A DNA stretch of 61,125 nt from an uncultured Gemmatimonadaceae bacterium (GTDB lineage: Bacteria > Gemmatimonadota > Gemmatimonadetes > Gemmatimonadales > Gemmatimonadaceae). A model generated the notes under the pieces. That model made no database searches. It was not told the origin of the DNA and saw nothing but the letters and a program-made list of their open reading frames with translations. The DNA is taken from contig CAWHHI010000007.1 of assembly GCA_963829055.1 (NCBI GenBank), positions 1-61,125 of the forward strand. Reading direction: 5' to 3'. Below are positions 29 to 60,945 of this stretch, one piece after another; position 1 is the stretch's first letter; every line of letters begins with the position of its first letter. The position numbers and the translations under genes were made by a program.

Positions 29-1534
29 TCATCGGATCGACCCCGGGACGCGCGCCGACCCGGGACCAGGCAGGCCACTGCCGCCACAGCCACCAATACC
101 GCGAGCCCGCCCGCAGAATGCCGATCTCTTCGAGCGTTTCGAACTCACGGCGTGTGGGGTCGCGGCGTTCGACCACGAAGACGATGTCGCGTACTCGCTC
201 TGCAGGGGTCGCACAACGCGTGTCGCGAGGTTCATCGCGAAGAGTTGGTCGCGCCCGCTCGGGTTCGCGTAGAACACGAGCTCGTTGCTACCCGCACGCC
301 AGCTCGGGGCCTGACTGCTCCACGGGTTCGACGTGAGCACGCGTTCGTTGCCGCCGAGTGTGTCGACGAGCACGAGGTCCAGTGGAAGGTGCGGGCGACG
401 GAGTTGAACGTGCCGCGCTGAAACGCGATCTGGCGCCCGTCGGCGATGGTACGGGGACGCCATCGAATCCTCGTCGCGCGACCAGGCGGCGGAGTCGAGC
501 GCCTGTCGTATCCATCGCGTAGAGGTCAACCTCGCCCGTGCCGGCGTAGTCTCGCGGTGACTGAAACACGATCTGTTGGCCGGACGCCAGAAAGGCGGGG
601 TGTGCGTCGCGCCCGGCGCTCCACGTTAGGCGTCGCGCGCCATTCCCCGTGGCCGCCATGGTGTAGATCTCCCAGTCCCCGTCGCGAGAGGACGCGAACA
701 CGATATGACTGCCGTCAGGCGACCATTGCGGCCACGCATTCCCGTAGGCCGAATTTGTAAGGGCGCGCTGGCCGGTGCCATCGGCGTTCATGAGGTAGAG
801 CTCGAAGCGGCCCTGGCGGTTCGAGTAGAACGCGATCTGCTTTCCGTCGGGTGACCACGCGAGCTCGTAGCTCGTACTGTCCGTCGTGAGCGGGCGGACG
901 TCGGTGTCGTCGGCGTTGGCCGAGTAGAGTCGGGCGTTCCCCTCGCGGTCGGAGAAGAACGCAATGCGCCGGCCGTCGGGAGAGTACTTCGCGCCGGCAT
1001 CAGTGCCCGCGTGCTTCGCCAGCGCGCGCTGGTCCGTGCCATCGGCGCGCATCGTCCAGATGTCGCTGTTGCCCTCCCGTGCCGAGCCGAACGATGCACG
1101 TGCCGTCGGGGGCCCGCGAGGCATATCTCGTCGCCACGGGGCGAGTACGTTAGGCGTCGGACGTTGCGGCCGTCGGCGTCCATCACGTAGACCTCGTCAT
1201 CGCCATCGCGGTCGGAGTCGAACAGAATCGTCTGTCCGTCGGGCGACCACTGCGGGTTCGTGTCGTCGCCGTAGCGCGTGGTGGTCAGGTGTCGCTCGCC
1301 TGTGCCGTCGACGTGATGATGTAGAGCGTCGTGTTGCGGTGGCGTGCGCTCTCGAAGACCAGCTGCCGCCCGTTGGGCGACCACGGATGGGTTAATGTCG
1401 AGGAAGACCGGCGCAGCCGCCTGCGCGCCGGCGGTCGCCGACGTGCAAATCGCGAAGACTGAAAAGACTTGCCACGTCGCGAAGCGGACGTGTGGGAGGA
1501 ATGGTCCGTCGGACATGCGGGCGAATCTAGGCAC
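29..1534 (-). CDS. TolB-like PD40-repeat beta-propeller protein (frameshifted; 3' end uncertain)
   Basis: Overlapping ORFs 788-1534, 288-1124 and 29-529 carry repeated PxWSPDG..I.F.S.R.G..EIY.M.ADG motifs; N-terminal signal-like segment. Confidence 0.85.
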
Positions 1535-1590
1535 CGCATCCGACGGGAGAATTGCACCTGCGGTTTCCGGACGACTCGCGGACGATCCGC

Positions 1591-2095
1591 TGTCATCCCG
1601 AGCGTCAGCGCATTGTCATCCCGAGCGTCAGCGCATTGTCATCCCGAGCGTCAGCGGAGCGTCAGCGAGGGATCTTCCCGAACGTTATCGTGGCCGGACC
1701 GGCTGCGAGTGATCGCAGGAAACTCCTGAGAAAAAGGCAAACGGCAACGGAGACAGGATTGCCAGGATTGGCAGGATGAACGCGACGTCTGAGGGGCGGG
1801 CGCCATCCGCTTGATGGGCAATCCTGTCAATCCTGCAATCCTGTCGGTTGGTTTTTGCAGTTGTCGTCGCGAGTGCTAGCGAGGGACTCGAAATTCAGGC
1901 TGGCTGGTACTACGCAACGCAGAGGGCTCAGAGCGCGCAGACCACGCAGAAAACAGCGATGGCAATTTTAGTTCATTTCGTTTCTGCGTCGTTCTGAGCA
2001 TTCAGAGCGCTCTGCGTTCCGCCGTTCCGAGTCGCGGAGCTCCAACTGGCTACGATGACCTCACAGCAGGTCCCTCGCTGACGCTCGGGATGACA
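1591..2095. repeat. Mosaic REP-like region: outer GTCATCCCGAGCG inverted pair enclosing CAGGAT-type and CGCAGA-type inverted pairs
   Basis: 23-bp unit TGTCATCCCGAGCGTCAGCGCAT x3 at 1591-1675, inverted partner at 2068-2095; CAGGAT x3 (1754-1777) vs ATCCTG x3 (1821-1843); CGCAGA-like x4 (1918-1950) vs TCTGCG-like x4 (1983-2016). Confidence 0.85.
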
Positions 2096-2105
2096 CAGTC
2101 CGCGA

Positions 2106-2591
2106 CTAGCGCCGCACGTAGCTGCCCACCACCTGACGCAGCGCGATCGCAATGCGGTTCCACCCGTTGATCGTGACCACGACCATCGTGAGGTTCACGA
2201 TTTCCACGTCGGTGAAATGCTGACGCACTTCCTCGAACACCTCGTCAGGCACGTGCGCGCGACCGAGCTCGTTCACAGCGTCGGTCCAGGCGAGCGCCGC
2301 GCGTTCGCGCGGTGTGAAAAACGGAGTCTCCCGCCACACGGGCACCGCGTACAGCCGTTGCTCCGTTTCGCCCTCGGCGCGCGCGTCCTTCGTGTGCATG
2401 TCCACGCAGTACGCGCACCCGTTGATGTACGAGGCGCGAAGCTTCATCAGGTGAATCAGCGAATGCTCGAGCCCCGAGTTGCGGATGTAGGTCTCGAGCC
2501 CGAGCTGCGCGTGTACCGCGCCAGGCGCTACCTTCGCGTAATCGATCCGCGGGCCGGATGCGGCCGCTACGTCATTGATCATTGTGGTCAT
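2106..2591 (-). CDS. Carboxymuconolactone decarboxylase/AhpD-family protein
   Basis: RASYINGCAYCVDMHTKDAR (CxxC-H) and NGWNRI motifs; divergent from an ECF41 sigma. Confidence 0.92.
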   Translation of the reverse strand: MTTMINDVAAASGPRIDYAKVAPGAVHAQLGLETYIRNSGLEHSLIHLMKLRASYINGCAYCVDMHTKDARAEGETEQRLYAVPVWRETPFFTPRERAALAWTDAVNELGRAHVPDEVFEEVRQHFTDVEIVNLTMVVVTINGWNRIAIALRQVVGSYVRR

Positions 2592-2642
2592 TGTCGTCTG
2601 GTTGGTGTCGTATGGAAATATCACGATCGTCTCACAGTCGAA

Positions 2643-2736: not shown

Positions 2737-3621
2737 ATGACCATGTTCAGCGACGACCTTTCCCCGGCAGACGACGCCGAGCACTACCGCACTCGGCTCT
2801 TCGGCATCGCGTATCGGATGCTGGGCGACGTGCAGGAAGCCGAAGACCTCGTGCAGGAAACCTTCCTGCGCTGGCACCAGGCGAAGCACGACGACATCGT
2901 CTCGGCCGAAGGGTGGCTCGTGGCCGTGATCACGCGCTTGTCGATCGACCGGCTGCGTCGCGCCGAGACCGAGCGGCTGCGCTACGTAGGCAACTGGTTG
3001 CCGGAGCCGATCGCGACGGCGGACGTTCTGCCCGACCACAGAGTCGAGCTCGCATCGGACCTCTCGATGGCGTTTCTTGTCCTGCTCGAGCGATTGGGTC
3101 CCGAGGAGAGGGCCGCGTTTCTCTTGCGAGAAGTGTTCGACGCCGGCTACGACGAGATCGCGCGCATCCTCGACAAGAGCGAGCCAGCCGTTAGGCAGAC
3201 CGTGCATCGCGCGAAGATGCGCGTACGGGAAGGGCGTCCCCGGGTCGCGGCACCAGCACCAGTCGAGAAGCAGGAAGCGCTGCTGCACCGCTTCCTGGAC
3301 GCGCTCGCGACCGATGACAAGGACGCCATGCTCGCGATGTTCGCGCCTGACGCGACGTTCATGAGCGACGGCGGCGGAAAGATTCCGGCCACCAGGCGGA
3401 CGCTCGAAGGGCCCGATCGGATCACCCGCTTCTTCTTCGGGCTGGAGCGAAAATACCCCGGCGCACTGACTCATCAGGTCATCGAGCTCAATGGCCAGCC
3501 GGCGATCGGGAGCTACCGCGACGGGGTGCTGCAGATGACGACATCGTTCGAGACCGATGGCGACCGCATTCTCGCGATTTATCGCGTACTCAATCCCGAC
3601 AAGCTCGCGCACTTGCGGTAA
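2737..3621 (+). CDS. sigJ: ECF41/SigJ-family RNA polymerase sigma factor with C-terminal SnoaL-like domain
   Basis: LFGIAYRMLG..EAEDLVQE, YVGNWLPEP, DGGGK and NPDKL motifs. Confidence 0.93.
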   Translation: MTMFSDDLSPADDAEHYRTRLFGIAYRMLGDVQEAEDLVQETFLRWHQAKHDDIVSAEGWLVAVITRLSIDRLRRAETERLRYVGNWLPEPIATADVLPDHRVELASDLSMAFLVLLERLGPEERAAFLLREVFDAGYDEIARILDKSEPAVRQTVHRAKMRVREGRPRVAAPAPVEKQEALLHRFLDALATDDKDAMLAMFAPDATFMSDGGGKIPATRRTLEGPDRITRFFFGLERKYPGALTHQVIELNGQPAIGSYRDGVLQMTTSFETDGDRILAIYRVLNPDKLAHLR

Positions 3622-3681: not shown

Positions 3682-6318
3682 CTAGTCCGCGCGAAGCGTC
3701 GTCACGGGATCGACACGAGCCGCGCGCCACGCCGGTACGGCGCACGCGACGACGGCCGTCGCCGCCAGTAGCGCGACGACGCCCAAGTACGTCACCGGGT
3801 CGAGACGCGACACGCCGAACAGCAGCGTGACGAGCGCCTGCGTTGCGACCATCGCCGCAGCGAGTCCCAAGACAACACCGTAGGCCGTCAACCGGAGTCC
3901 CTGGCGCAGCACCAGCGAGACGATATCGCGGTGGGTCGCGCCTAACGCGGCGCGCACACCCATCTCACGCGTCCGTTCGACCACGCTGCCGGAAAGCACA
4001 CCGTAGATGCCGGCCGCGGCGAGCACCAGCGCGGCGAGCGCGAAGGCCTCGAACAGCGTGACGGCGAAGCGGCGACTCGCGGCCGACGAGGCGAGCAGTG
4101 CGTCCATCGTCGCCACGCGAACGATGGGTTGATCCTTGTCGACCGACCAGATCGCTTCACGAATCGTCGGGGCGAGCGCCGCCGCGTCGCCTCGAGCACG
4201 GACGACGAGTGACATGACGTTGTCCGTGTAGTGCCACTGCGCCATCGTCGTGTAGACGGCATCCGATTCGCTCAGCGCGAGCGATTCCTGTTTTACGTCG
4301 GCGACGACACCAACCACCGTGTAGAGTGGTCCGTCGCCAATATCCAGGCGCTGACCAATGGGATCTATGCCGGGCAGACGACGCTTCACCATGGACTCGC
4401 TGATCACCGCGACCAGCGGCGCACCCGCGCGGTCTCCCTCCTCGAGCGACCGGCCTCGACGCACGGGAATCCGCATGGTCTCGAAGTACCCGGGCGTTAC
4501 TCCGTAGCGGAATGAACCCCGAACTTCGCCGGGATCGTTGGCCACAGCCGGCTTGAAGTGTACCCCGTACAATTCAACGTCGCCGCTGAGCGGCAACTGG
4601 CTCGTGAGGGCCGCACTCTGCACGCCCGGCACTCGACGCACGGCATCGAGCGCCTGCTCGAAGAATCGATACGTGGCGCCATCAGCGTCGAAGCGATGGC
4701 CGACGGCCGCGACCTGCATGGTGAGTAGCCCCGACGCGTCGAACCCGGAACGCACACCGAACAGTCGCTCGATACTCCGAAGTAACAGCCCGGAGCTCAC
4801 CAGTAGCAGCAGCGCGAGCGCCACCTCGGCGACGACGAGCGCGCCACGAGTGCGTCGGAGTCCACCGGTCGTCCTGCGCGAGGCGCGTTGGAGATCTTCG
4901 CTGGGGTCACCGCGTACCGCCTGGATCGCCGGGATCGTTCCGAATGCGACGCCGATGAGGGTAGTGACCGCGAGTCCGAACGCGAACGCCTTGACGTCTA
5001 CACTGATAGCCGCGACGCGGGGTAGCTCGGGCGGGCCCAGCCTAACGATGGCGCCGACCCCACCTGTGGCCACCGCCATCCCGATAGCACCGCCAGCCGT
5101 AGCGATGAGGAGGCTCTCAGTCAACAGTTGTCGCACCAGTCGGGCACGGCTCGCCCCGAGCGCGGTGCGGACGGCGAACTCGCCGCGACGCTCCGCACCG
5201 CGGGCGAGCAGCAGATTGGTCACGTTCACGCACACGATCAGGAGCACGAGCGTAACGGCGCCGAGTATCGCCAGGAGTGCCGGCCTGACGCCGCGCGTGA
5301 GGTCCTCCTGCAGTGCGCTGATGACGAGGCCGTCTTCCAGTGCCGCCCAGGGCTGTCGTGGGAACTCGGCGACAGGGTTTCGCGCGACGGCATTGACCTC
5401 GCGGGCGGCATCCTCCATGCGCATGCCGGGGCGAATGCGTGCCACCATTCGGAGGTGATGGCCCCAGGCGCGATCCTCCGACATGTCGTAGTCGAGCGGC
5501 GTCCAGATCTGGGCCGACGGCGCGATGGCGCTGACGAACGTCTTCGGCATCACGCCGATCACGACGAACGGATCGCCGTTGAGCACTATCGAGCGGCCAA
5601 TGAGCGCCGGGTCACCGCCGAAGCGGCGCTCCCAGAGCGCGTTGCTCACGATGACGACGTTAGGCGCGCCCGCCCGGTCCTCGGAGCGGAGGAAGTCGCG
5701 GCCGAGCATGGGCCTGACGCCAAATGCGCGGAAGTAGCTGGCGCTCACACGTTGGCCGTCGAGTCGCTCCGGCTCGGCCGGGCCGGTCATCGTGGGCTGC
5801 CACGCTTTCATGGCCGCCATCGCCTCGAACGACCGTGTGCGCGCTTCGATCTCGCGGAGCGTGCCGAATGTGACGTCGAGCCGCGAGCCGTCAATGCCGT
5901 AATCCCAGACTGTCGCAATCCGATCAGCATCGGGATACGGAAGCGGCCGGAACAGGATCGAGTCGACGGCGCTCCAAATGGCGGTCGTCGCGCCGATGCC
6001 TAACGCCAATGTGAGGACGGCGATTGTCGTGAATCCTGGTGTCGCCCGCAGGCGCCGGACGGCGTAGCGCATGTCGGCAACCGCAGCGTCGACCGCATTC
6101 TCCCAGCCGTAGCCGCGCACCTGTTCGCGCACGACGGTGATGCCACCGACCTCGAGTCGCGCCGCGCGCCGGGCCTCGGCTTCCGACAGCCCGCGCGCCA
6201 GGTGTGCGGCGGTCGCCTGATCGAGGTAGTGCTGCACTTCATCGGAGATCTCGGCGTCCGTCGTCGAGCGATCGAAGAGGGACCGGACGCCGCGGGACAG
6301 TTGTCGCCAGGGGTTCAT
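3682..6318 (-). CDS. ADOP-family duplicated ABC permease (MacB_PCD/FtsX x2)
   Basis: Intact 878 aa; TLALGIGATTAI, NVTNLLLARG..R..E..VR.ALGASR, C-terminal VPAWRAARVDP. Confidence 0.93.
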   Translation of the reverse strand: MNPWRQLSRGVRSLFDRSTTDAEISDEVQHYLDQATAAHLARGLSEAEARRAARLEVGGITVVREQVRGYGWENAVDAAVADMRYAVRRLRATPGFTTIAVLTLALGIGATTAIWSAVDSILFRPLPYPDADRIATVWDYGIDGSRLDVTFGTLREIEARTRSFEAMAAMKAWQPTMTGPAEPERLDGQRVSASYFRAFGVRPMLGRDFLRSEDRAGAPNVVIVSNALWERRFGGDPALIGRSIVLNGDPFVVIGVMPKTFVSAIAPSAQIWTPLDYDMSEDRAWGHHLRMVARIRPGMRMEDAAREVNAVARNPVAEFPRQPWAALEDGLVISALQEDLTRGVRPALLAILGAVTLVLLIVCVNVTNLLLARGAERRGEFAVRTALGASRARLVRQLLTESLLIATAGGAIGMAVATGGVGAIVRLGPPELPRVAAISVDVKAFAFGLAVTTLIGVAFGTIPAIQAVRGDPSEDLQRASRRTTGGLRRTRGALVVAEVALALLLLVSSGLLLRSIERLFGVRSGFDASGLLTMQVAAVGHRFDADGATYRFFEQALDAVRRVPGVQSAALTSQLPLSGDVELYGVHFKPAVANDPGEVRGSFRYGVTPGYFETMRIPVRRGRSLEEGDRAGAPLVAVISESMVKRRLPGIDPIGQRLDIGDGPLYTVVGVVADVKQESLALSESDAVYTTMAQWHYTDNVMSLVVRARGDAAALAPTIREAIWSVDKDQPIVRVATMDALLASSAASRRFAVTLFEAFALAALVLAAAGIYGVLSGSVVERTREMGVRAALGATHRDIVSLVLRQGLRLTAYGVVLGLAAAMVATQALVTLLFGVSRLDPVTYLGVVALLAATAVVACAVPAWRAARVDPVTTLRAD

Positions 6319-7036: not shown

Positions 7037-7786
7037 TCAGGCCACGATGTCGTCGAATGACTCGATGATCTTCTCGTCCTCGCGCGCGGGCTCCGGATTT
7101 CCCGGACGCACGCACAGCAATGCCTGAAAGCCAGCCGCCCGCGCTGCCGATAGCTCGGCGTGCACGTCCGAGAGGAAGAGCAGCTCGTTAGGCTGGTGGT
7201 GCAGCTCCGACGCAATGTGGCGGTAGCTGTCTGCCGCACGCTTCGGGCCGATGGTGGCGTCGAAAAACTGACTGATGCGTGGCGTCAGGTCGCCCGCCGG
7301 CGTGTGGCCGAAGATGAGCCGCTGCGCGAGCACGCTGCCTGACGAGTAGATCGCGACGTCGATCGATGATGATCGCCAGCGCTCCAGCGCCGGTGCGACG
7401 TCCGGGAACAGCTCGCCACGCAGGCTGCCGTCGGCGAACCCGCGCTGCCAGATCATGCCCTGAAGCAGTTTGAGCCCGGTCGATTTGCGGTCGCGGTCCA
7501 TGAGCCAGAGCACGTACGGCTCGAGGTCCGCCGCATTCCCGCTGCTCATGTCCGCCGGCAGTGGGGGAGGGGAATTACCGCGCGCCACATCGGCGGCGTG
7601 CTCCTCACGGAGCTGGCTGTCTACCTCGGCCAGCAGCCCCGACGGGGCACGGGTCGACAGGAACTCGCGCAGGTGCGTGCGCGCGTACGGAAACAGCACG
7701 TTGTACACGAACGCGATGGGCGTCGTGGTGCCTTCGATGTCCAGCACCACACCTCGGACGCCGAGCGAACCTAACGTGACCGTCAC
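7037..7786 (-). CDS. mtnC: Enolase-phosphatase E1 / acireductone synthase
   Basis: LDIEGTTTPIAFV..LFPYAR, DRKSTGLKLLQG, YSSGSVLAQ, LFLSD motifs. Confidence 0.95.
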   Translation of the reverse strand: MTVTLGSLGVRGVVLDIEGTTTPIAFVYNVLFPYARTHLREFLSTRAPSGLLAEVDSQLREEHAADVARGNSPPPLPADMSSGNAADLEPYVLWLMDRDRKSTGLKLLQGMIWQRGFADGSLRGELFPDVAPALERWRSSSIDVAIYSSGSVLAQRLIFGHTPAGDLTPRISQFFDATIGPKRAADSYRHIASELHHQPNELLFLSDVHAELSAARAAGFQALLCVRPGNPEPAREDEKIIESFDDIVA

Positions 7787-8361: not shown

Positions 8362-9005
8362 GGTGTCCTCCGCGTGACCTGTACGTCGCCGTTCTCCCGA
8401 TCGTCTCGAACATGAACTCCAGAATCTCGACGTGTCGCACCGCTTCGGCGAGCGACGCGCCCCACGTGTAGAGCCCGTGCCGATGCAGCAGGATCGCGTG
8501 CGCGGTCGGGTGCTGGTCGAGCGTCTCGCCGACGACGCGAGCCAGGCGCGTCATGTCCTGGTCGTTCGCGACGATCGGTACCCACTCACGATGCGCGTGC
8601 GTGCACACGCCGTCGAGTCCCTTGAGCATCTCGTAGCCTTCAATGCCGAGGCCGCCGTCGGGTCCGTGACTGTCGGAGAGGACGGTGCCCCACACCGAGT
8701 GCGTGTGCAGCACCGCGCAGGCCCCGCGTCGGCGCACGATCTCGAGGTGCAGCAGCGTCTCGGCCGACGGGCGTCCGGTGCCCGACACGACGATGCCGTC
8801 CTCGCCGATGTGCAGGATGTGCGACGGCGTCGAGCGCGCCTTTGTCGAGCAAGCTCGCCGTGATCGCCAGCCGGAGCGGGTTTTCCGAGACGACGGCGCT
8901 GAAGTTCCCGCTCGTACCCATCACCCAGCCGCGCGCGTAGAAGCGGCGGCCGACGGCGACGAGGGCGTCGGCGATGGTGGCGGCGGGTTCTGGCACGTTA
9001 GGCAC
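8339..9005 (-). CDS. mtnB: Methylthioribulose-1-phosphate dehydratase (frameshift near 8820)
   Basis: RGWVMGTSGNFS, PSAETLLH, LHTHS, EMLKGL, HGLYTWG..HVEILEF across two frames. Confidence 0.92.
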
Positions 9006-13433: not shown

Positions 13434-13461
13434 GTGGCTGGCATCGCGTTAGGCATGGCTA

Positions 13462-13643: not shown

Positions 13644-13666
13644 GTCGCCACCGGCCTAACGAGAAG

Positions 13667-33675: not shown

Positions 33676-33696
33676 GCGGTCAGTGACGCGGGCGAC

Positions 33697-38570: not shown

Positions 38571-38659
38571 AACGGGGGCACCCTATTCCTTCTGCCGGGC
38601 CAACGTGGTAGAGCCGGGTGCTCGACAAAGCCGAGGCGCTTCGGACGGTCGAGCGTTAG

Positions 38660-49855: not shown

Positions 49856-52151
49856 TCACGCCCACTTCAGATCCTGCTTCGACAGCGGCAGCGAGCGCAC
49901 CCGCTTGCCCGTCACCGCGAAGATCGCCGAGCACAGCGCGGGAACCACCGGCGGCAGCGCGGGCTCGCCGAGGCCCGTCGGCGGATTCTCCGTGATCTTG
50001 AAGTGCACTTCCACCGGCGGCGCCTGACGCAGACGCAGCAGCGGGAACGTGTTGAAGTTCGACTGCACCGTCGCGCCCGTTCTCGATCGTGATCTCCTGG
50101 CCTAGCGCCTCGGCGATCCCGTCGAGCACCGCGCCCTGCACCTGGTTCTCGGCGTTGAGCGGGTTGATGATCTGGCTGCCGACGTCGCCCGCCACCCAGA
50201 CCTTGTCGACCTTCACCGTGCCGTCCTTGCGCGACCGTCGCCTGCACGACCTCGGCGAAGTAGCCGCGGTGGCTGAAGTGGAACGCGACGCCCATGCCCG
50301 TGCCCTTCGGCAGCGTCGTCTTGCCCCAGCCCGACTTGTCGCGCACGAGCTCGAGCACGCCGCGCATGCGCGCCGCCTCGAAGCCCGGCGGCTGCGCCGG
50401 CCGGGCCGGGGTCCTGCGAGACCGGCGTGTTCGCCAGCATGTCGAGGCGGAACTGCAGCGGATCCTTGCCCGCCGCGTGCCGCGAGCTCGTCGATGAACG
50501 ACTGCGTCGCGAACGCGATGCCGTTGCTGCCCGGCGCGCGCAGCGCGCCCGTCGGGACGCCGAACGGCATCACCGACGTGTCGAGCGCGAAGTTCGGGAT
50601 GAAGCGGGCCGGGAACTCCGTGCCGCCGATGCCCGCGCTCGCCGCGAACGGCGCGCCGCCCTGCGCCGGCGGCGCCGCCATCTTCTCCGGATCGCCGAAC
50701 GACACGAAGTGGTTGCGCCACGCGACGAGCTTGCCGCTCGCGTCGACGCGCGCCCTTGAGGTAGTGAAAGCCCGCCGGACGGTAGAAGTCGTGCTGCATG
50801 TCGTCTTCGCGCGTCCACAGCAGCTTCACCGGCACGCCGGCCTGCTTCGCGATCCACGCCGCCTCGACCATGTAGTCGTTGTTGAGCCGACGGCCGAAGC
50901 CGCCGCCGCCGCGCGAGCATGTGGATCGTGATGTCGGTGTCCTTGATGCCTAACGTCTGCGCGCACGAGCGCGCGACCGGCTCCGGCGTCTGCGACGGCG
51001 CCCAGATCTCGAGCTTGCCGTCCTTGAAGCTGCGCCGTGCAGTTCTGCGGCTCGAGCGGCGCGTGCGCGATGAACGGATAGAAGTACGCCGCTTCGACGA
51101 TCTTGCGCGCCGCTCTTGAACGCGGCATCGACGTCGCCGTCCTTCCGGAGCGACCGCTGCGGCGCCTTCTTCGACAGCTCGGCCGCCTGCGCGGCGAAGC
51201 TCGCGCTGCTCTGCGCCGCCGTCGGGTGCTCCTCCCACGTGACCTTGAGCTTCGCGCGCGCGGTCTTGCGCCGCCCACCAGTTGTCGGCGACGATCGCCA
51301 CGCCGCCTAACAAGCCCGGCGAGCTGCGTGCCGCCGTCGACGACGAACGCGTGCTTGACGCCCGGCTCCTTCTTGATCTCGTCGAGGTTCGCGGTCTTCA
51401 CCTTCGCCGCGAACACCGGCGACTTCTCGAACACCGCGTACAGCATGCCCGGCACCGTGACGTCGATGCCGAAGAGCGGCTTGCCCGTCACGATCGCGTG
51501 GTTGTCCACGCCCGGCACGCCCTTGCCGATGATCGTGAAGTCCTTCGGATCCTTGAGCTTCACCGTCGTCGAGATCGGGCGCGGTGAGCGTCGCGGCCTT
51601 CGTCGCGAGCTCGCCGTAGCCGATCGTCGCGATTGCTCGCCGTGTGCACGACCGTGCCCGCGCTCGTCGTGAGCTCCGACTCCGGCACGTTCCACGTCTG
51701 CGCCGCGGCGCGTCACGAGCATCGCGCGCGCCGCCGCGCCGACGCGGCGCATCGGCATCCAGTTCGTCGGCGTCGCCGTGCTGCCGCCCGCGACCTGGCG
51801 CTGGTAGTTCACGGTGTCGAGCTTGCCCTGCTCGATCGCGCACCTTCGACCAGTCGACGTCGAGCTCGTCGGCGATCAGCATCGGCAGCATCGTCTTCAC
51901 GCCCTGACCGATCTCCGGGTTCTTCGCGATGATCGTGATCGATGCCGTCCGGCGTGATGCGGATGAACGCGTTAGGCCGGAAGTCGTCGGCCGTCTTGCC
52001 GGCGCGCCGGCCAGACGCGCGCTGGCGTTCGCGAACGGCTCGATGTACGTCGCCAGCAGCACGCCGCCGCCGGCGATGCGCGCTCACGCGCAGGAACTGG
52101 CGGCGATCCACGGGGTCGGGCGACTGGCGCCTTGGGGGTCTTGGTGTCCAT
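49856..52151 (-). CDS. Xanthine dehydrogenase-family Moco subunit (IorB-like), Tat-exported (frameshifted)
   Basis: [61 protein letters not shown]. Confidence 0.9.
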
Positions 52152-52763: not shown

Positions 52764-53829
52764 TTACTTCTTCACGTATCTCTTCAACGCGCGAGGGCCG
52801 ACTTCCGCTCCATAAATGTTGCCGGCTGCATCCACCGCAACGCCCTCGGCCGCGCTCGTGCTCGGTGGGTTCTCTGCCGGATCGGGGATGAAGGCCGTCA
52901 CCGTACCGTCCTTCGCGCTGCCGATGCGAATTCCCCGCTTCCAGTCCGTGCGTGGCTTGAAGACCGAGCCGGACTCCGAGTCCGCGACGTAGATGCGGTC
53001 CTGGCGGTCGATGAAGATGCCACTCGGCCGGCTGAACTGGTACCACGTATCGAGCAGCTTGCCGTTCTGATCGAAGATCTTGATGCGGTTGTTGCCGCGA
53101 TCGCCGACGAAGAGCCGCCCGCGCGAGTCCATTGCCAGCGCATGAGGCTGATCGAGCTCGTCGGGACCGCTGCCGAACTTGCCCCAGCGTCGCGATGAGC
53201 TTCCCGTCCTTCGAGAACTTCAGCACACGCGCGACAGACCCTGCGGACGACGAATGGCCCTCGGCCACGTAGATCTCGCCGTTAGGCGCGACGAGCACGT
53301 CGTTCGGCTGGTAGAAAAATCCCGAATCGGTCGCGCCGGCGCCGCCAGCCTTGCCGAGCGTCATGAGTAACTTGCCGTCGGGGCTGAACTTGAAGATCTG
53401 ATGGCCCGCCGGAGGATTCGCCGGCTGGGCAGAGCGGCCGAGGGTGCAGGCACAGTCGGTGACCCAGACGTTGCCCTCTCGATCGACGTCGATGCCATGT
53501 GGCGAGAGGATCAGCCCGGCACCGAACGACTTCACGACCGCGCCGGTCGCGTCGAACAGGTAGACCGACGGAAGCGGCGATCCGGCACACGCGTTCGCGC
53601 CGCAGCGTTCGGCCACCCAGACGCCCTTGCCGTCGGGGGCAATCGCGACGGCGCTGGTCGAGCCCCACGCTCGATCGCCCGGAAGCTTGGCCCAGCCCTC
53701 GACCGTGCGATACGGGTTGGGCAGATCGTTGACGGGCTTGGGCGCGGCCTGGGCACCGCTGGCCGACCCGGCGACGAGCGTGGCGACCGCCACAATGAGA
53801 TAGCGTGTCGGGCGACGTACGAGGGGCAT
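52764..53829 (-). CDS. Secreted NHL-repeat, peptidyl-alpha-hydroxyglycine lyase-like protein (frameshift near 53170)
   Basis: NPYRTVEGWAKLP, PHGIDVD, FYQPNDV..IYVAEGH, LFVGDRGNNRI; signal peptide. Confidence 0.85.
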
Positions 53830-55015: not shown

Positions 55016-57717
55016 CCCTCGGCTCGGCCGCGCGCTCAGTGCGCTTCTCCCCGAACGAATAGTCGCCGACGCGTTCGAGCCCGCATTCGAGGATCTGCGG
55101 CTCGCGTATCTCGTCCGTCGCCAGGACAGCGGGTCGTCGTTAGGCCGCGGGGCGCTCTACGGCGCGTTCGTGGCCCTGGCGATCCTGTTGTTCCTCGACT
55201 GTTGGCGGCTCGTTGTTGCCGGCGTGTTTCATCGACGCGAGCGCGCCGTCGACCGTCCACTGCCGCACGACGTCATCACCGAACCAAAGCAGACGGAGCG
55301 ATTCCCCATGTTCGTGTACCTCGTACGCCACGCATTCCGTCAGCTCGTTCGTGAGCCGGCGTTCACCGTCGCCGCGCTGTTGACGCTGGCGTTAGGTGTC
55401 GGCGCGAACGTCGCCGTGTTCGCCGTCGTGGAAGCCGTGTTGCTTCGGCCGCTCCCGTACGCGAGCGCCGACCAGCTCGTGATCCTCAATCATCGCGATC
55501 AACGCACCGGGATCACGAAGGAGTTCATCGCGATCGGCGACTACGCCGACCTCGTGGGCCGTCAGACGACGTTCGAGGCCCTGAGCGCCTACGGGCGGGG
55601 ACAAACGTCCATCGTCGACGGCGACAACCCATTTCGCGTCGACCTGTTAGGCTCCGGCCCCGGCCTCCTCGAATTGTTGCGGGTGCGTCCGGTGCTCGGC
55701 AGAACCTTCCAGCCCGAGGATGCTCGCGACGGGGCTCCGCCGGTGATGATGCTCGGCTACGATACGTGGAAGAAGCGTTTCGGTGGCGACCCATCGGTGA
55801 TCGGGCGCGTCGTGAAGCTCGAACAGTCGGCACGCCAGGTCGTCGGCGTCGCGCCCGCCGGGTTCACGTTCCCGCCTAACGCCACAACGGACATCATCCT
55901 GCCGCTGCAGGTCCCGACAGTGGCGCCAGCGCAGCGCCGCGCGGGTTGGACGTTCGTCATCGGCCGCCTCAAGCCGGGTCGCACGCTGGCCGACGCCGCC
56001 ACGAACCTGACGGTGATCTCCCGTCAGTTGGAAAAGGAGTACCCGCAGAGCAATCTCGCCGCCGAGTATTTCCCGCTCGATCTCCGTACGTCGCTCGCGG
56101 GCAACACGAAGCCCGCGTTGATGCTGCTGTTCGCGGCCGTCGGGGTGGTGCTGCTCATCGCCTGCGCCAACGTCGCGAACCTGCTGCTCGCGCGGTCGCT
56201 CGGCCGTCGGCGTGAGATGTCGGTTCGCCTCGCGTTAGGTGCCGGGGGTGGACGGCTCGCGGCTCAGCTTCTCACCGAGAGCCTGGTGCTCGCGCTGGTC
56301 GCGGGCGCCGCCGGTATCCTGATGGCGTACTGGGGCGCGCATGCGCTCGTGGCGCTGCTGCCGCACTCCGGAAGCGTGCCAGGCATGCAGCGAGGTGCAC
56401 ATCAACGGAAACGTTCTCGCATTCACGCTCGGCATCATCGCGCTCACGACCGTCGTGTTCGGCCTCGTCGCCGCACTCACGGTTCGATCGGAGAAGGCGG
56501 TCAGCGTGCTGAACACGTCGCGGGGGTCGAGCATGAGCGCCACGGCGCGTCGCGCGACGTCCACGCTCGTTGTCGCGGAGGTCGCGCTGGCGATCGTGTT
56601 GCTCGTGGGGGCCGGTCTCATTCTACGGAGCTTCGCGGGACTGCTGGCCGTCGACCCCGGCTTTCGCACCGAGAACGTCATGACGATGTCCCTCGAGTTA
56701 CCCGGCAACCGATACCGCGACTTCGGCGCGCGCGACGGATTCTACGCCAGAGAGTTCGCCGAGCTGTCTTCGATTGCCGGCGTGAAGGCGGTCGGCGTAG
56801 CCGCGGTGACACCGCTTACCGGAAACAACTGGACGGCGCCGTTCGAACGTCCCGAGCGGCCCGTTCCTGCTGGTGAGCGGCCGCCGGAAGTCGGATGGCA
56901 GCTCGCGTCGAACGGGTACTTCAAGGCGCTACAGATCCCGGTCGTGGCTGGCCGCTTGTTCGACGAGCGGGACGCCGGCGCGAAGGCGCCGTTCACCGTG
57001 ATCGTGAGCGAGGCGATCCAGAAGCGCTTCTTCCCTAACGAGAGCGCGGTCGGAAAGCACGTCAAGATCGGCGACGGGCCGGCGGAAATCATCGGCGTTG
57101 TCGGGAACATCCGACGGGCCGGTCTCCGCGACGAGCCGCGCGCCGACATGTATTTCCCGTTCGAGCGCGAGAAGCCGGGGCAGATCACGATGTTCGTCAG
57201 GACGGCGTCGGATCCGGAGCGATCGCTGGCGACGATCAAGGCTGCCATCGCTCGCGTCGAGCCTAACGCGTTCGTGTCGGAAGTCCAAACGCTCTCGCAC
57301 GTCGCCAGCGAATCCGAGCGCGTGACTCGCGTGGTGCTGTGGCTGCTCGGCGTATTCGCCGTGACGTCACTCGCCCTCGCGGCGGTTGGGATCTACGGCG
57401 TCATGTCGTATGCGGTTCGGCAGCGCACGCGGGAGATCGGCACGCGCATCGCGCTCGGCGCGACGCGCCGGAACATCCTCTGGCTCGTGCTGCAGCAAGG
57501 CGCCGTGATCGCCGCAGTGGGAACCGTGGTCGGTCTGGCGACCGGGCTCGTGACCACGCGCTTCCTGTCGTCCATCCTGTACGGCGTGTCAGGCACCGAC
57601 CCGCTGACGTTAGGCGGGGCGGTGCTGGTGCTCGTCGTGACGATCATGCTCGCGTGTTGGATCCCCGCGCGGCGGGCCGCATCGGTCGACCCGGCGAAGA
57701 CGCTGGCCGAGCAGTAA
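55008..57717 (+). CDS. ADOP-family duplicated ABC permease (frameshift near 56390)
   Basis: TLALGVGAN, LLIACANVANLLLAR, EVALAIVLLVGAGL, WIPARRAASVDP. Confidence 0.92.
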
Positions 57718-58479: not shown

Positions 58480-59013
58480 TCAGCCCCTACAGGCGCGCAC
58501 CGTCTGGTTCGTCTTCTCCTCACTCGCTTCGCTGCCAGACGCGAGATCGAACGCGATATGCGCCGCTTCGTGCTCCATGGTCCAGACCACGTCGTTCACG
58601 GTGCGCACGCCGACGTTGAGCGAGTCGATCTCGCGCGCGAGCATCATCTCCCCGTTAGGCTTGGCCTCGCCGGACGCGAGGTTGCTTCCCACGCGCCACA
58701 TGAACGGGCGGATCGTGATCTGTCCGCCGCGGTACGAGCTCTCGAGCACGGAACCGTACCGCGAACAGTCGCCGCCCCGCGCCTTGAGATCGACAATGCG
58801 TGATTCGACTGCCCGCGTGATCTCGGCCGGCATCGGGATGGCCTCGCAGTCGGTGCACGGACCGTCGGCGCGTGGCCCTGACGTCTCGTTCCTGGTGTCG
58901 TTACGCAGGTTGGGCGCACCAACGGACGCCGACGATGCCCCACGCGCGGACGCGCATGCGGCCGAGCCGGTGAGTGCGGCGATCGATATCAGGTAGAGGG
59001 CGTGACGGACCAT
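58480..59013 (-). CDS. Hypothetical lipoprotein with HExxH motif
   Basis: Lipobox-like GSAAC; MEHEAAHIAF; several Cys. Confidence 0.6.
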   Translation of the reverse strand: MVRHALYLISIAALTGSAACASARGASSASVGAPNLRNDTRNETSGPRADGPCTDCEAIPMPAEITRAVESRIVDLKARGGDCSRYGSVLESSYRGGQITIRPFMWRVGSNLASGEAKPNGEMMLAREIDSLNVGVRTVNDVVWTMEHEAAHIAFDLASGSEASEEKTNQTVRACRG

Positions 59014-59113
59014 CGGACCTTAAGGATGCGTTCGGTTGACATGTACTCTTGATCGATACGATGGAGGATGGCCTAACGCAACCGGATGTGCGCTAGCGGC
59101 GCTGCTGGCGGCG

Positions 59114-59332
59114 TTACGACGGCTGGGCGTAGGACTCGAGGTACCCGCAGCTCTCGCAGCGATACGTCGTGACCGGATGCCCGGCGTCCCGGGCGAGCTT
59201 GAGCCCGGTCCAAATGGATCGCTGCGGCTTGCCTTCGGCCCACTGCGACTGGACGCGCCCCCCGTGGGTAGCGTCGACGATGAAGCCTTCTTCCATGCTG
59301 GAGTTGCACTTGGGGCAGGTAGGGCTGGTCAT
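59114..59332 (-). CDS. Small zinc-ribbon protein (PF20097/DUF6487-like)
   Basis: CPKCNSSMEEGFI..W.EG..YRCESCGYLESYA. Confidence 0.8.
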   Translation of the reverse strand: MTSPTCPKCNSSMEEGFIVDATHGGRVQSQWAEGKPQRSIWTGLKLARDAGHPVTTYRCESCGYLESYAQPS

Positions 59333-59373
59333 GTGTGTGGTTGGCGCTGGCTACGTGAGAACCGCGGCGACTG

Positions 59374-59928
59374 ACATCAAGAACCCAGGTGTGAACGGAT
59401 CCGGCGGAAACAACGGATCGGCCTGATTTGATACATAGGGCACTCGATTGATTGCGCGGTGGAGCGTCCGTGCACGACTCTAAATCTGCAACGGCGACCA
59501 CTGATTCACGAACGGCTCACACGCTCGGTCATCGGAGCATTCTACGAGGTTTACAACCAGCTCGGTTTCGGGTTCCTCGAGCATATCTACATGATGGCGC
59601 TCGAGCGGGAGCTCCGGGCACGCGGCCATCAGGTGGGCCGCGAAGTATGGGTGACGGTCTACTACAAGGGTGAAGAGCTGGGTCGGCAGCGGATCGACAT
59701 GCTGGTCGACGGGAAGCTGGTAGTCGAGGGAAAGGCGACCTTCGAGCTACGGCGGGGAGCGCGGCGACAGTTGTACAACTATCTCCATGCCACAGACTTA
59801 CAGGTTGGGCTTCTGCTGCATTTCGGCCCTGAGCCACGATTCTATCGCGTCGTTTCGATCAATGCCTCGCGTGTATCCGCCCAATCAGCTGTTTCCGAGT
59901 GATCCGAAGGAACCGGGGTTCTGGATGT
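59374..59928. mobile_element. Putative cassette: GxxExxY gene bounded by 54-bp imperfect inverted repeats
   Basis: 59374-59427 vs reverse complement of 59875-59928: 39/54 identical, ungapped (manual alignment). Confidence 0.6.
59459..59902 (+). CDS. GxxExxY-family PD-(D/E)XK nuclease-like protein
   Basis: VIGAFYEVYNQLGFGFLEHIY, RIDMLV..VVEGK, QLYNYL, GLLLHFG. Confidence 0.92.
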   Translation: MERPCTTLNLQRRPLIHERLTRSVIGAFYEVYNQLGFGFLEHIYMMALERELRARGHQVGREVWVTVYYKGEELGRQRIDMLVDGKLVVEGKATFELRRGARRQLYNYLHATDLQVGLLLHFGPEPRFYRVVSINASRVSAQSAVSE

Positions 59929-60945
59929 TCGAGCCGACCGAGACCCAACCACCTCGTTCCGCGGACCGGAACAAGGCGTCGATGACCTCCATGTTCCCGA
60001 CCGACGTCTCGAGCGACACCGGTACCGTGCCGACGCCGCGCACGGCCTCGGAGAAGCGATCCGCCTGCAGCGTGAACTGGTCTGTCGCGGGAGTCTCGAT
60101 CACTTCGGCACTCGCGCCGTGCGAACTGTGAACCGTCGTCGACGAAGATTCTGCACGGACGGTCCGGCGGCGCGTTGAACGGGATCTCCACCTCGATCCG
60201 GCCGCGCTCGCCAAAGAGATGCACCCGCTGATATGGCCCGAGCTGTCCGGCACAGGTGAACGTCGCCTGACCTGTCGGGAAGCGCATCATCGCCGACGTT
60301 AGGCGGTCGATCTCCAGGTCGGGGTCGCGCTCGATCATCGCCACCACCTGCATCCGGCTCGGCGCCGAACATCCAGCGCGCGATGAAGATCGGGTAGCAG
60401 CCAACGTCCATGAGCGCGCCGCCGCCCCAGGCCAACTGACTCCGGATGTCAGCAGGGTCGCGCCGGTAGTAGCTGAAGTGGGCCGTCATGAGGCGCAGCC
60501 CGCCCACGCGTCCGCTGGCGATCACGCGCTCGACTTCCTGCCACTGCGGATGCGTGCGCACCATGAATGCCTCCGCGATCTGGACGTGGTTCGCATCGCG
60601 CGCGGCGAGCAGCGTGCGGGCCTCGCTGGCGGAGAGCGCGATCGGCTTCTCGCAGAGCACGTGCTTCCCAGCCTGCGCGGCACGGATGGACCACGGCACA
60701 TGCAGATGGTTCGGGAGCGGATTGTACACGGCTTCGACGTCGGCGTCGGCGAGAAGCTCCTCGTAGGAACCGTACGCGCGCGGAATACCTAACGCCGCCG
60801 CGGCCGCGCGCGCCTTCGCGATGTCACGCGATGCAATCGCCACCGGCACCGCGAGCCGACTGGCGCGCATTGCCGGAATGACTTTCTTGACCGCGATGTT
60901 CGCAGCGCCGAGGATGCCCCAGCGGACTGGTTCGAGAGCTGTCAC
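59885..60945 (-). CDS. Gfo/Idh/MocA-family oxidoreductase (frameshifted)
   Basis: RWGILGAANIA, YNPLPNHLH, HVLCEKP, GGGALMDVGCY, EIPFNAP. Confidence 0.92.

What the first reader, a model, noticed from the sequence alone, without database searches (positions are those of the whole stretch)
624..60795. Highly iterated non-palindromic octamer CGTTAGGC/GCCTAACG, about one per kb, written into coding sequence
Seen: by manual count about 48 exact copies (~22 CGTTAGGC, ~26 GCCTAACG) plus ~17 one-mismatch copies retaining the GTTAGG/CCTAAC core. Examples: 624, 1148, 3940, 5040, 5658, 5998, 7186, 8996, 10591, 25261, 36831, 43761, 57261, 59071. At ~68% GC a zero-order model gives only ~2-3, and TA-containing words are otherwise scarce here. 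Copies are single and spread fairly evenly. They sit in genes in different frames, often forcing rare codons: GCG-TTA-GGC (5998), GTT-AGG (5040), CCT-AAC (5658), CGC-CTA-ACG (27335). The stop-containing frames are used as gene ends (TAA at 8998, TAG at 33673). Established: this is how DNA uptake sequences and cyanobacterial HIP1 behave, whereas Chi/KOPS are strand-skewed and this motif is not. Inference: a lineage-specific DNA-level signal (uptake sequence, chromosome-organising protein site, or target of a modification/repair-driven process). I know of no description of it but cannot check the literature here.
Basis: partly seen in the sequence, partly recalled or inferred. Interest (0 to 1): 0.9.

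Follow-up and report, generated by a model that had tools for sequence, protein, structure and literature searches.

The report
Genome-wide CGTTAGGC tag, hosts and phages
One eight-letter DNA word is written thousands of times through this soil bacterium's genes, through an unrelated group of soil bacteria and through several phages; it matches the crossover core of integron cassettes, and nobody yet knows what reads it.

Summary
The window has 49 exact copies (23+/26-), against about 1 in shuffles, plus 17 further GTTAGG cores. The genome has 5004 copies, about 50-80 times a low-order Markov expectation and 20-40 times a protein-preserving codon null.

The word is a sharp octamer with no conserved flanks. 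It lies on both strands, in all frames, in stop codons and in spacers. It shows no replichore skew and a marked deficit of gaps under 200 bp. It is kept 2.5 times better than other 8-mers among congeneric species.

This scan has noted the same word before on other DNA (33 notes).
- The same word is hyper-abundant in Chthoniobacterales (Verrucomicrobiota), with an extra T upstream.
- Bona fide phage genomes, one probably virulent, carry 21-33 copies each. There the word is strand-polar, and in two records concentrated before the packaging genes.
- RecC, an AddB-like gene, IntI and ComEC do not track the word. TopIB is in every rich genome but also in a third of poor ones.

An uptake sequence is the main rival. 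String and keyword searches found no paper describing it.

The parts
624..631 (+). CGTTAGGC copy
   Evidence: kept in 1 of 2 aligned congeners
1148..1155 (+). CGTTAGGC copy
   Evidence: kept in 2 of 2 aligned congeners
3189..3196 (+). CGTTAGGC copy
   Evidence: 0 of 1 congener
3940..3947 (-). CGTTAGGC copy (GCCTAACG on +)
   Evidence: kept in 4 of 5 congeners, the fifth one letter off
5040..5047 (-). CGTTAGGC copy
   Evidence: species-specific, 0 of 5
5658..5665 (+). CGTTAGGC copy
   Evidence: 2 of 5 congeners
5998..6005 (-). CGTTAGGC copy
   Evidence: 0 of 5
7186..7193 (+). CGTTAGGC copy
   Evidence: 1 of 5, one more is CGTCAGGC
8996..9003 (+). CGTTAGGC copy; its TTA is the TAA stop of ORF 8998..9912(-)
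10591..10598 (+). CGTTAGGC copy
10728..10735 (+). CGTTAGGC copy
11788..11795 (-). CGTTAGGC copy
13447..13454 (+). CGTTAGGC copy
13654..13661 (-). CGTTAGGC copy
15689..15696 (-). CGTTAGGC copy
   Evidence: kept in 5 of 5 congeners although flanks differ
17229..17236 (-). CGTTAGGC copy
17436..17443 (+). CGTTAGGC copy
19655..19662 (-). CGTTAGGC copy
   Evidence: 0 of 1 (one letter off)
20378..20385 (-). CGTTAGGC copy
21208..21215 (+). CGTTAGGC copy
21817..21824 (-). CGTTAGGC copy
24475..24482 (-). CGTTAGGC copy
25261..25268 (-). CGTTAGGC copy
26460..26467 (+). CGTTAGGC copy
26734..26741 (-). CGTTAGGC copy
27335..27342 (-). CGTTAGGC copy
27802..27809 (+). CGTTAGGC copy
30920..30927 (-). CGTTAGGC copy
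32320..32327 (-). CGTTAGGC copy
33670..33677 (+). CGTTAGGC copy; its TAG is the stop of ORF 32749..33675(+)
35462..35469 (-). CGTTAGGC copy
36831..36838 (-). CGTTAGGC copy
37740..37747 (-). CGTTAGGC copy
38654..38661 (+). CGTTAGGC copy
40608..40615 (+). CGTTAGGC copy
42405..42412 (-). CGTTAGGC copy
43761..43768 (-). CGTTAGGC copy
44408..44415 (+). CGTTAGGC copy
46589..46596 (-). CGTTAGGC copy
50948..50955 (-). CGTTAGGC copy
51970..51977 (+). CGTTAGGC copy
53280..53287 (+). CGTTAGGC copy
55138..55145 (+). CGTTAGGC copy
55874..55881 (-). CGTTAGGC copy
57261..57268 (-). CGTTAGGC copy
57608..57615 (+). CGTTAGGC copy
58653..58660 (+). CGTTAGGC copy
59071..59078 (-). CGTTAGGC copy
60297..60304 (+). 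CGTTAGGC copy

Best explanation
CGTTAGGC is a DNA-level 'self tag' read inside the cell by a sequence-specific protein that I could not identify.

How I think it works: copies arise by ordinary substitutions at places where the protein sequence tolerates them. They are then kept by selection, because DNA that carries a copy every few hundred to few thousand bases fares better in these cells. The same pressure acts on the phages that replicate there. The working analogue I think closest is Chi, a short asymmetric word that tames a DNA-end-processing or DNA-degrading machine, so that tagged DNA is spared or repaired and untagged DNA is not.

Shown here: the abundance of the word, its sharpness, its maintenance, its turnover, its spacing, its presence in two phyla, and its presence and polarity in phages.

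Inferred: that a protein reads it, that the benefit is intracellular, and that the machine is Chi-like. The identity with the integron attC R' core is shown but not explained by this reading.
For: 1. The word is imposed on DNA against coding habits. Confident genes hold 2998 copies, against 66-143 under protein-preserving nulls. 49% of all TTA codons (1229 of 2525) lie inside the word. It occurs in the four stop-free frames (1302, 423, 600 and 893 copies), at gene edges (390) and in uncalled DNA (1370).

2. It is a sharp octamer. Flanks carry at most 0.13 bit. Variants at inner positions sit at or below background (observed/expected 0.4-1.2). Only the outer positions and one inner change are tolerated: T at position 0 is 17 times expected, T or G at position 7 is 21 and 14 times, and T at position 5 is 9 times.

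3. It is maintained but turns over. 15 of 38 site-by-genome pairs are kept among congeners that share 69-88% of their letters, against 7440 of 47385 (15.7%) for other 8-mer windows. Some sites are kept in 5 of 5 genomes and others are species-specific. The alignments showed gaps at 5 of the 38 site-by-genome pairs, mostly beside rather than inside the word; this was read from the printed strings, not counted by a script.

4. Sites avoid each other. There are 215 gaps under 200 bp where an exponential gives 611, and an excess at 500-1500 bp. This is what a one-per-segment function with a cost per site predicts.

5. Phages carry it. Five records with phage packaging, head or tail genes hold 26 copies in 28.6 kb, 21 in 31.6 kb, 29 in 44.1 kb (98% complete), 33 in 55.6 kb (93% complete) and 31 in 16.3 kb. 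The reversed control word occurs 0-3 times. Copies lie inside annotated phage genes at 0.5-1.5 per kb. The 55.6 kb phage has its own DNA polymerase, three helicases and thymidylate synthase, and no integrase hit among the 30 ORFs scanned, each of about 180 aa or more.

6. In phages the word is polar. In the four records where I saw a terminase gene, 85 of 119 copies lie on the strand of that gene. In the 55.6 kb phage, the first 27 kb (replication genes up to the terminase and portal) has 23 copies, 20 of them on +. The remaining 28.5 kb has 10 copies, 5 on +. Chi shows this kind of pattern in lambdoid phages (abstract of PMC3784561).

7. Two blocks of about 47-50 kb lack the word.
Against: - There is no replichore skew in the host. 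The Spearman correlation with GC skew is 0.16 (p = 0.06), and the variance of z is 1.05 over 145 windows. As I recall it, known Chi sites are co-oriented with replication.
- No matching reader was found. RecC was found in 0 of 31 genomes. An AddB-like gene was found in only 7 of 31, and not in the rich genomes G001, G002, G005, G010 and G014.
- The 44 kb phage encodes a RecT-like recombinase yet carries 29 copies. In lambdoid phages, those with their own recombinases avoid Chi (abstract of PMC3784561).
- An enrichment of 50-80 fold is, from what I recall, far beyond that of any known Chi.
- The identity with the attC R' core is left unexplained.
- Phage lifestyle rests on the absence of hits, not on proof.
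- The phage records were picked by a scan for two copies of the word. The two ascertaining copies are a small part of each count.
Confidence: 0.38

Rival explanations
1. DNA uptake sequence. A surface or periplasmic receptor of the transformation machinery prefers DNA with the word. Biased uptake plus recombination then spreads it through the chromosome, as with the DUS of Neisseriaceae and the USS of Pasteurellaceae.
For: - The host pattern is what I recall of USS and DUS: about one copy per 0.8-1.6 kb, on both strands, in all frames, with outer-position degeneracy, conservation with turnover, and word-free blocks.
- The uptake machinery is present. ComEC was found in 31 of 31 genomes. G000 has a type IV pilus cluster with two pilA genes, three minor-pilin-like genes and candidate pilM, pilN, pilO and pilQ genes, named from position and N-terminal sequence only.
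Against: - ComEC is equally present in the word-poor genomes.
- The same core word occurs in two phyla.
- The four word-poor relatives sampled show no other dispersed word, so there are no dialects beyond one flanking base.
- Phages, including a probably virulent one with its own replisome, carry the word at host-like density and with strand polarity. Uptake bias does not predict either.
- The deficit of gaps sits below 200-300 bp rather than at fragment length.
Confidence: 0.17
2. Site of an enzyme of the tyrosine-recombinase / type IB topoisomerase fold. The word would be the binding and cleavage half-site of the integron integrase or of a sequence-specific bacterial TopIB, generalised from attC and attI sites to the whole chromosome.
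For: - The word equals the R' end, with its inner C, of bona fide attC hairpins in the cassette arrays of word-poor relatives and of G000's own integron.
- The base at -2 in G000's array is G in 5 of 6 sites, which leans the way of the genome-wide preference of 40% G.
- A single half-site is non-palindromic, as observed.
- IntI is present in 5 of 5 rich Chthoniobacterales.
- TopIB is intact in 17 of 18 rich or intermediate genomes; the 18th, G014, holds an internally deleted fragment. It was found in only 1 of 14 control genomes.
Against: - IntI was not found above the cut-off in G002, G004, G010, G018 and G077, and in G014 it lies in three frames. It is common in word-poor genomes: 18 of 31 and 27 of 61 genomes overall.
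- G000's IntI is about 40% identical to all others, with no clade of rich genomes.
- TopIB also occurs in 25 of 78 word-poor genomes.
- The rich Chthoniobacterales probably form one or two clades, because their IntI scores are the top three. The association therefore rests on few independent events.
- Most f1 genomes have TopIB anyway (14 of 18).
- No mechanism is known by which cleavage would favour gaining sites.
Confidence: 0.12
3. Repair- or modification-driven conversion, as proposed for HIP1. A horizontally acquired enzyme, such as a methyltransferase with a short-patch repair nuclease, would convert near-cognate sequences into the word in any DNA that replicates in the cell.
For: - The distribution is scattered and crosses phyla.
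- The word accumulates in phages as well as in hosts.
- There are word-free blocks.
- Several inner one-letter variants lie below expectation: CGTTAGAC 24 against 59 expected, and CGTTAGTC 27 against 71.
Against: - Known short-patch systems, as I recall them, correct one position of a site, not eight.
- Conversion predicts neither the short-gap deficit nor the polarity and regional concentration in phages.
- Orthologous non-word sequences often differ at 3-5 of the 8 letters.
- No enzyme candidate was tested.
Confidence: 0.12
4. Artefact, chance or a by-product of protein and codon composition.
For: The assembly has apparent frameshifts, so some sequencing error is present.
Against: - No shuffle of 100 reaches the observed count.
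- The codon-preserving nulls give 20-40 times fewer copies.
- The word is equally rich in 7 species of the genus, in another genus, in Chthoniobacterales and in phage records assembled by others.
- Near-identical contigs occur in runs of 16 studies.
Confidence: 0.01

Closest known systems
Chi sites (E. coli GCTGGTGG and the 5-8 nt Chi of other bacteria), read by RecBCD or AddAB
   Same: Both are short non-palindromic words over-represented in the bacterium's own DNA and poor in some foreign blocks. Both are over-represented, polar and regionally concentrated in some phages (abstract of PMC3784561). In both, one site per stretch suffices, which fits the short-gap deficit.
   Different: The host shows no co-orientation with replication. 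RecC was not found in 31 of 31 genomes, and the AddB-like gene does not track the word. The enrichment is about ten times stronger than I recall for Chi. One phage with a RecT-like gene still carries the word.
DNA uptake sequences: DUS of Neisseriaceae (receptor ComP) and USS of Pasteurellaceae
   Same: Density, strand symmetry, occurrence in all reading frames and in stop codons, degenerate outer positions, conservation with turnover, and absence from some blocks.
   Different: The same core occurs in two phyla, and the sampled word-poor relatives have no word of their own. The word is abundant and polar in phages. No receptor is known, and the competence genes do not discriminate. Uptake itself is untested.
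Integron attC / attI core site (R' box; the consensus GTTRRRY is recalled, not taken from a call)
   Same: The letters are identical, including the inner C, to the R' end of attC hairpins in this order and in G000's own array.
   Different: The dispersed copies have no R'', L' or L'' partners and no conserved flanks. They lie inside ordinary genes, and the alignments at orthologous sites showed few gaps, read by eye. Their abundance does not follow the presence of IntI.
HIP1 (GCGATCGC) of cyanobacteria
   Same: Both are hyper-abundant octamers written into coding sequence, scattered among lineages, with an unknown cause.
   Different: HIP1 is a palindrome and this word is not. The link of HIP1 to methyltransferases is recalled, and nothing comparable was tested here.

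Membership tests
DNA uptake sequence (DUS/USS) | Hyper-abundant short asymmetric word, about one per kb, on both strands, inside genes | tested here: met
   5004 copies in 7.78 Mb, 2547/2457, in all frames
DNA uptake sequence (DUS/USS) | Word specific to one family, with dialects in related lineages | tested here: not met
   The same core occurs in Gemmatimonadaceae and Chthoniobacterales. The 4 word-poor relatives sampled (40-100 kb each) have no other dispersed word. The only difference seen is the base at -2.
DNA uptake sequence (DUS/USS) | Preferential uptake of tagged DNA through a dedicated receptor | not testable with these tools
   ComEC in 31 of 31 genomes and a type IV pilus cluster are present but do not discriminate. 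The Pfam ComP family was not searched.
Chi | Recognised by RecBCD or AddAB | tested here: not met
   RecC (PF04257) in 0 of 31 genomes. The AddB-like gene was found in 7 of 31 and was missing with this query from rich G001, G002, G005, G010 and G014.
Chi | Co-oriented with replication in the chromosome | tested here: not met
   145 windows of 50 kb: rho 0.16 with GC skew, variance of z 1.05
Chi | Over-represented and polar in phages of the host | tested here: met
   21-33 copies per phage record; 85 of 119 copies on the terminase-gene strand. The hosts of these phages are inferred, not shown.
Integron attC site | R' core paired with R'' and L boxes in an imperfect hairpin, in arrays beside intI | tested here: not met
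   This holds for the arrays but not for the dispersed copies, which have no flank information. Only 14 inverted pairs lie closer than 100 bp.
HIP1-type highly iterated palindrome | Palindromic word | tested here: not met
   CGTTAGGC is not its own reverse complement (read from the sequence)
KOPS / architecture-imparting sequences | Strong strand skew that switches at origin and terminus | tested here: not met
Sequence-specific type IB topoisomerase site | The enzyme is present wherever the word is abundant and absent elsewhere | tested here: inconclusive
   Intact in 17 of 18 rich or intermediate genomes, with a deleted fragment in G014. It is also present in 25 of 78 word-poor genomes.

The most novel reading that the evidence does not exclude
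The word is the address of an enzyme of the tyrosine-recombinase / TopIB fold. That enzyme would act genome-wide, on the chromosome and on infecting phages, in two unrelated soil phyla, and it would share its address with integron cassettes. Integron attC sites and a chromosome-wide tagging system would then be two uses of one recognition code.
Probability: 0.12. Interest if true: 0.95.

Novelty: new variant of a known kind. Interest (0 to 1): 0.82.

Why it matters
As far as I recall, hyper-abundant functional words are known from only a few systems (Chi, DUS/USS, HIP1, KOPS), and each opened a field. This word is as abundant as any of them. It occurs in two abundant and little-studied soil phyla and in their phages, and it coincides with the integron crossover core.

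The word also gives a simple marker for host assignment of soil phages and for spotting foreign or mis-binned DNA in these genomes.

The string searches and keyword searches found no description of it in the held library.

Tried and rejected
- **High-order Markov nulls (orders 4-6).** They reproduce the count only because the sub-words are mostly the word itself. I rejected them as a null.
- **My own gene caller.** It covers only 74% of the genome, probably because the assembly has frameshifts. The 'intergenic' count is therefore inflated. Frame counts are used, but density by coding status is not.
- **Within-species variation at the sites.** Only 40 of 596 variant places were printed. None lies in the 18 sites, but only 0.3 was expected, so the test has no power.
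- **The attG paper (passages of bioRxiv 10.1101/2022.09.11.507474).** Genomic insertion sites of cassettes need only GWT, so they do not explain an octamer.
No association was found.
- **The stand-alone IntI N-terminal ORF at G000:C4:2850-3281.** It looks like a truncated relic beside an ABC transporter gene, and it shows up in only 3 genomes. I dropped it.
- **RecC and the AddB-like gene.** Neither tracks the word.
- **Unbiased cross-phylum gene screen.** One tenth of the G033 chromosome was compared with all G000 ORFs. It gave 183 hits with no way to subtract housekeeping genes and took 266 s, so I abandoned it.
- **Pilin candidates.** They were listed but not profiled.
- **Earlier scan notes searched for a reader candidate.** Nothing relevant turned up.
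- **tRNA and Rfam scans of the window.** Both found nothing.
- **Origin of the two word-free blocks.** It is unresolved: recent transfer or assembly chimera.

Full report
**The observation**

The window, which is the whole of contig C7 of a 7.78 Mb, 20-contig, 66.7% GC assembly, has 49 exact copies of CGTTAGGC, 23 on + and 26 on -. In 100 dinucleotide-preserving shuffles the mean was 1.08 and the maximum 4. The six-letter core GTTAGG occurs 66 times, against a shuffle mean of 6.2, so 17 more copies keep the core.

Genome-wide there are 5004 copies (2547/2457), one per 1.56 kb. That makes this TA-containing word the 14th most frequent 8-mer of a GC-rich genome. Markov models of order 0 to 3 expect 102-297 copies, and 60 if the word is masked before the model is built. 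By a z score against the order-2 Markov expectation it is the most over-represented 8-mer, and the next words in that list are its own overlaps. Models of order 4 to 6 reproduce the count only because the sub-words are mostly the word itself: 56% of all TTAG and 87% of all TTAGGC lie in it.

**It is a DNA-level signal**

- In 5573 confidently called genes there are 2998 copies. Within-gene synonymous shuffling gives 131-143 (5 runs), and redrawing codons from the usage outside the word gives 66-89 (3 runs). 1229 of 2525 TTA codons lie in the word.
- Copies occur as NCG-TTA-GGC (1302), C-GTT-AGG-C (423), NGC-CTA-ACG (600) and G-CCT-AAC-G (893), at gene edges (390) and in DNA without a called gene (1370). 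My gene caller covers only 74% of the genome, so the last figure is inflated.
- Two window copies supply stop codons.
- Flanking positions carry at most 0.13 bit, so the word is not part of a longer repeat.
- Against a masked order-3 background, the only tolerated one-letter variants are T at position 0 (17 times expected), T or G at position 7 (21 and 14 times) and T at position 5 (9 times). Variants at positions 1, 2, 4 and 6 are at 0.4-1.2 times expectation. If 5004 sites decayed neutrally, I estimate that each inner variant would number in the hundreds. Their absence argues for active maintenance.

**Arrangement in the host**

- Orientation is binomial. Over 145 windows of 50 kb the variance of z is 1.05, and the correlation with GC skew is 0.16 (p = 0.06). 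GC skew and gene strand do correlate (0.41), so replichores are visible in this assembly.
- Neighbouring sites avoid each other. There are 215 gaps under 200 bp against 611 expected, in all four orientation pairs, and an excess at 500-1500 bp.
- Two stretches lack the word: C6:5.4-55 kb (GC 69-72%, with a transposase and a primase-like gene at the contig start, then trp and other housekeeping genes) and C11:0-46.8 kb. Their origin, recent transfer or assembly chimera, is unresolved.

**Evolution**

Among five other species of the genus (69-88% nucleotide identity over the syntenic region), 15 of 38 site-by-genome pairs keep the word. Other 8-mer windows are kept in 7440 of 47385 cases, or 15.7% (binomial p = 4e-4; the pairs are not independent). 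Sites 15689 and 3940 are kept in 5 of 5 and 4 of 5 genomes although their flanks differ. Sites 5040 and 5998 are unique to this genome. In the printed alignments, 5 of the 38 pairs showed a gap, mostly beside rather than inside the word, and the non-word orthologues differ at 1-5 letters (read by eye, not counted by a script). The word is thus written by substitution, kept, and turned over.

**Distribution**

- In 31 genomes of the order, all 7 of genus g1 have 2501-5112 copies. G014 (another genus) has 6360 in 5.1 Mb. G010 has 605, G030 345 and G018 194. The other 20 lie below the reversed-word control.
- Samples of 40-100 kb confirm dispersed enrichment in G014 (1.08 per kb) and G010 (0.16 per kb, its top word). 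Four word-poor relatives have no copy and no other dispersed hyper-abundant word. Their top words are 7-bp tandem heptads.
The 80 printed rows are mostly Gemmatimonadaceae and Chthoniobacterales.
- Five Chthoniobacterales genomes hold 5186, 2990, 2136, 2254 and 661 copies in 3.8-4.3 Mb. In an even sample of 61 genomes of that order, 4 are enriched (2136, 2140, 948, 352) and 57 are not.
- In G033, 79% of GTTAGG cores have T at -2 (TCGTTAGGC). The figure is 46% T in G014, and 40% G with 30% T in G000.
- One word-poor relative (G013) is unpublished. It enters only the counts.

**Integrons**

In word-poor relatives the few copies cluster on single contigs, on one strand, 500-630 bp apart. They are the R' ends of typical attC hairpins (R''-L''-loop-L'-R') in cassette arrays, one of them beside intI. 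IntI (TIGR02249) is over its cut-off in 18 of 31 genomes.

G000 has intI at C20:208008-208985(-) with 265.7 bits, just over the cut-off. It is followed on the same strand by small cassette-type ORFs (DUF4440, a BrnT-like fragment, DUF1801, DUF1990), each preceded by the word.

The identity of the octamer, including the inner C, with the local attC end is unlikely to be chance; I did not calculate a probability. Even so, IntI does not track the word:
- It was not found above the cut-off in rich G002, G004, G010 and G018.
- In G014 it lies in three frames.
- It is present in 27 of 61 Chthoniobacterales, including 3 of the 4 rich ones.
- G000's IntI is about 40% identical to all the others.

**Phages**

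Three scans of IMG/VR for pairs of the word gave 134 loci. Thirteen of them have at least 5 copies at 0.4 per kb or more.

PHROG scans show true phage genes in L246 (scaffold, portal, both terminase subunits), G096, L276, G097, L296, G098 and G099. Whole records hold the following, with 0-3 copies of the reversed control word:

| Record | Copies | Length | Completeness |
|---|---|---|---|
| G096 | 26 | 28.6 kb | 61% |
| G097 | 21 | 31.6 kb | 17% |
| G098 | 29 | 44.1 kb | 98% |
| G099 | 33 | 55.6 kb | 93% |
| L246 | 31 | 16.3 kb | not given |

Copies lie inside annotated phage genes at 0.5-1.5 per kb. A sixth record, G100, has 8 of its 9 copies in its first 6 kb and was set aside as a probable host flank.

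G099 encodes a DNA polymerase, three helicases, thymidylate synthase and a glucosyltransferase. It has no integrase hit among the 30 ORFs scanned, each of about 180 aa or more, so it is probably virulent.

Unlike in the host, the word is polar in phages:
- Copies on the terminase-gene strand number 21 of 29, 25 of 33, 17 of 26 and 22 of 31, or 85 of 119 in all.
- Among copies in called genes of G096, G098 and G099, 54 of 70 have the word on the sense strand, against 53.6% in the host.
- In G099, the first 27 kb (replication genes up to the terminase and portal) holds 23 copies, 20 on +. The other 28.5 kb holds 10, 5 on +.
- In L246, the 10 kb upstream of terS holds 23 copies, 18 on the terminase strand.
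- In G098, orientation switches near 8.5 kb: 5 of 6 on - before it, then 20 of 23 on +.
- G096 does not fit this pattern upstream of terS.

The abstract of Bobay et al. 2013 (PMC3784561) reports that Chi is strongly over-represented in lambdoid phages lacking recombinases and is concentrated between the origin and the packaging site.

**Candidate readers**

| Candidate | Result |
|---|---|
| ComEC | 31 of 31 genomes |
| RecC | 0 of 31 genomes |
| AddB/AddA-like locus at G000:C15:9.2-14.3 kb, split over four frames | found in only 7 of 31; missing with this query from G001, G002, G005, G010 and G014 |
| TopIB (PF01028) in the relatives | all 7 g1 genomes (two paralogs each), G010 and G018; an internally deleted fragment in G014; also 6 of 21 word-poor relatives |
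| TopIB in Chthoniobacterales | 5 of 5 rich genomes; 4 of 4 rich against 19 of 57 poor in the order sample |

The TopIB link is suggestive but weak. Fourteen of 18 genomes of family f1 have the gene anyway, and the rich Chthoniobacterales are probably one or two clades.

**Reading**

A pure uptake drive does not predict a dense, polar word in a probably virulent phage. A repair drive does not predict the polarity or the short-gap deficit. I therefore favour an intracellular tag under selection that works like Chi (0.38). The weak points are plain: there is no host skew, no reader, and no explanation for the attC identity. An uptake sequence (0.17), a site of a recombinase-fold enzyme (0.12) and conversion (0.12) remain open.

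**Novelty**

Searches of the held library for either strand of the word returned only papers that hold it incidentally (20 titles shown per search, none on this). 'Uptake sequence' with 'Gemmatimonad' returned 0 papers, and 'over-represented', 'octamer' and 'Verrucomicrobia' returned 3 irrelevant ones. Earlier agents of this scan noted the same word in at least 7 other genomes and called its reader unknown.

Noticed in passing
window 39000-57000; G000:C15:9162-14328: The codon phase of GC3 shifts every few hundred bases. An AddB/AddA-like locus is split over four frames here, while its orthologues in G003, G004 and G006 are open for 1081-1507 aa. The assembly probably carries many indel errors, or many pseudogenes.
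   Followed up: partly
window 16504-16660 and 10003-10672: A stretch of about 100-150 bp at 16504-16660 matches dozens of places in every genome of the genus at 75-85% identity. It has 10-40 times the contig depth of its surroundings in four metagenomes, and so does 10006-10672. Neither is a tRNA or an Rfam family. This may be an unclassified small repeat.
   Followed up: partly
G000:C6:5441-55038 and G000:C11:1-46790: Two blocks of about 47-50 kb have none or one copy of the word. The C6 block has 69-72% GC, a DDE transposase, an AbiEii-like ATPase and a D5_N primase-like gene at the contig start, followed by trp, aro and sugar-nucleotide genes. It is either a recent transfer or an assembly chimera.
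   Followed up: partly
G000:C4:2850-3281 (-): A 143-aa ORF consists only of the N-terminal SAM-like domain of an integron integrase and is truncated beside an ABC-transporter ATPase gene. Similar N-terminal-only hits occur in G002 and G003.
   Followed up: partly
L057-L061 (G018) and L064-L066 (G007): The most over-represented words of two word-poor relatives come from short intergenic runs of 7-bp tandem heptads (CAGATGT-like and CGTCTAT-like units), often as inverted pairs.
   Followed up: no
L243:5562-6497 (IMG/VR contig, 29.8% GC): Nine copies of the word sit in a repeated unit of about 30 bp, six of them exactly 108 bp apart. This low-GC viral contig is otherwise unrelated to the word-rich hosts.
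   Followed up: no
G033:C1:1922096-1924412: In the complete Chthoniobacterales chromosome, the TopIB gene lies 1.3 kb from a partial integron-integrase-like hit covering residues 19-129.
   Followed up: no
L414:11173-12012 (phage G099): The word-rich phage encodes a homologue of a beta-glucosyl-HMC alpha-glucosyltransferase and a thymidylate synthase, which suggests hypermodified DNA.
   Followed up: no
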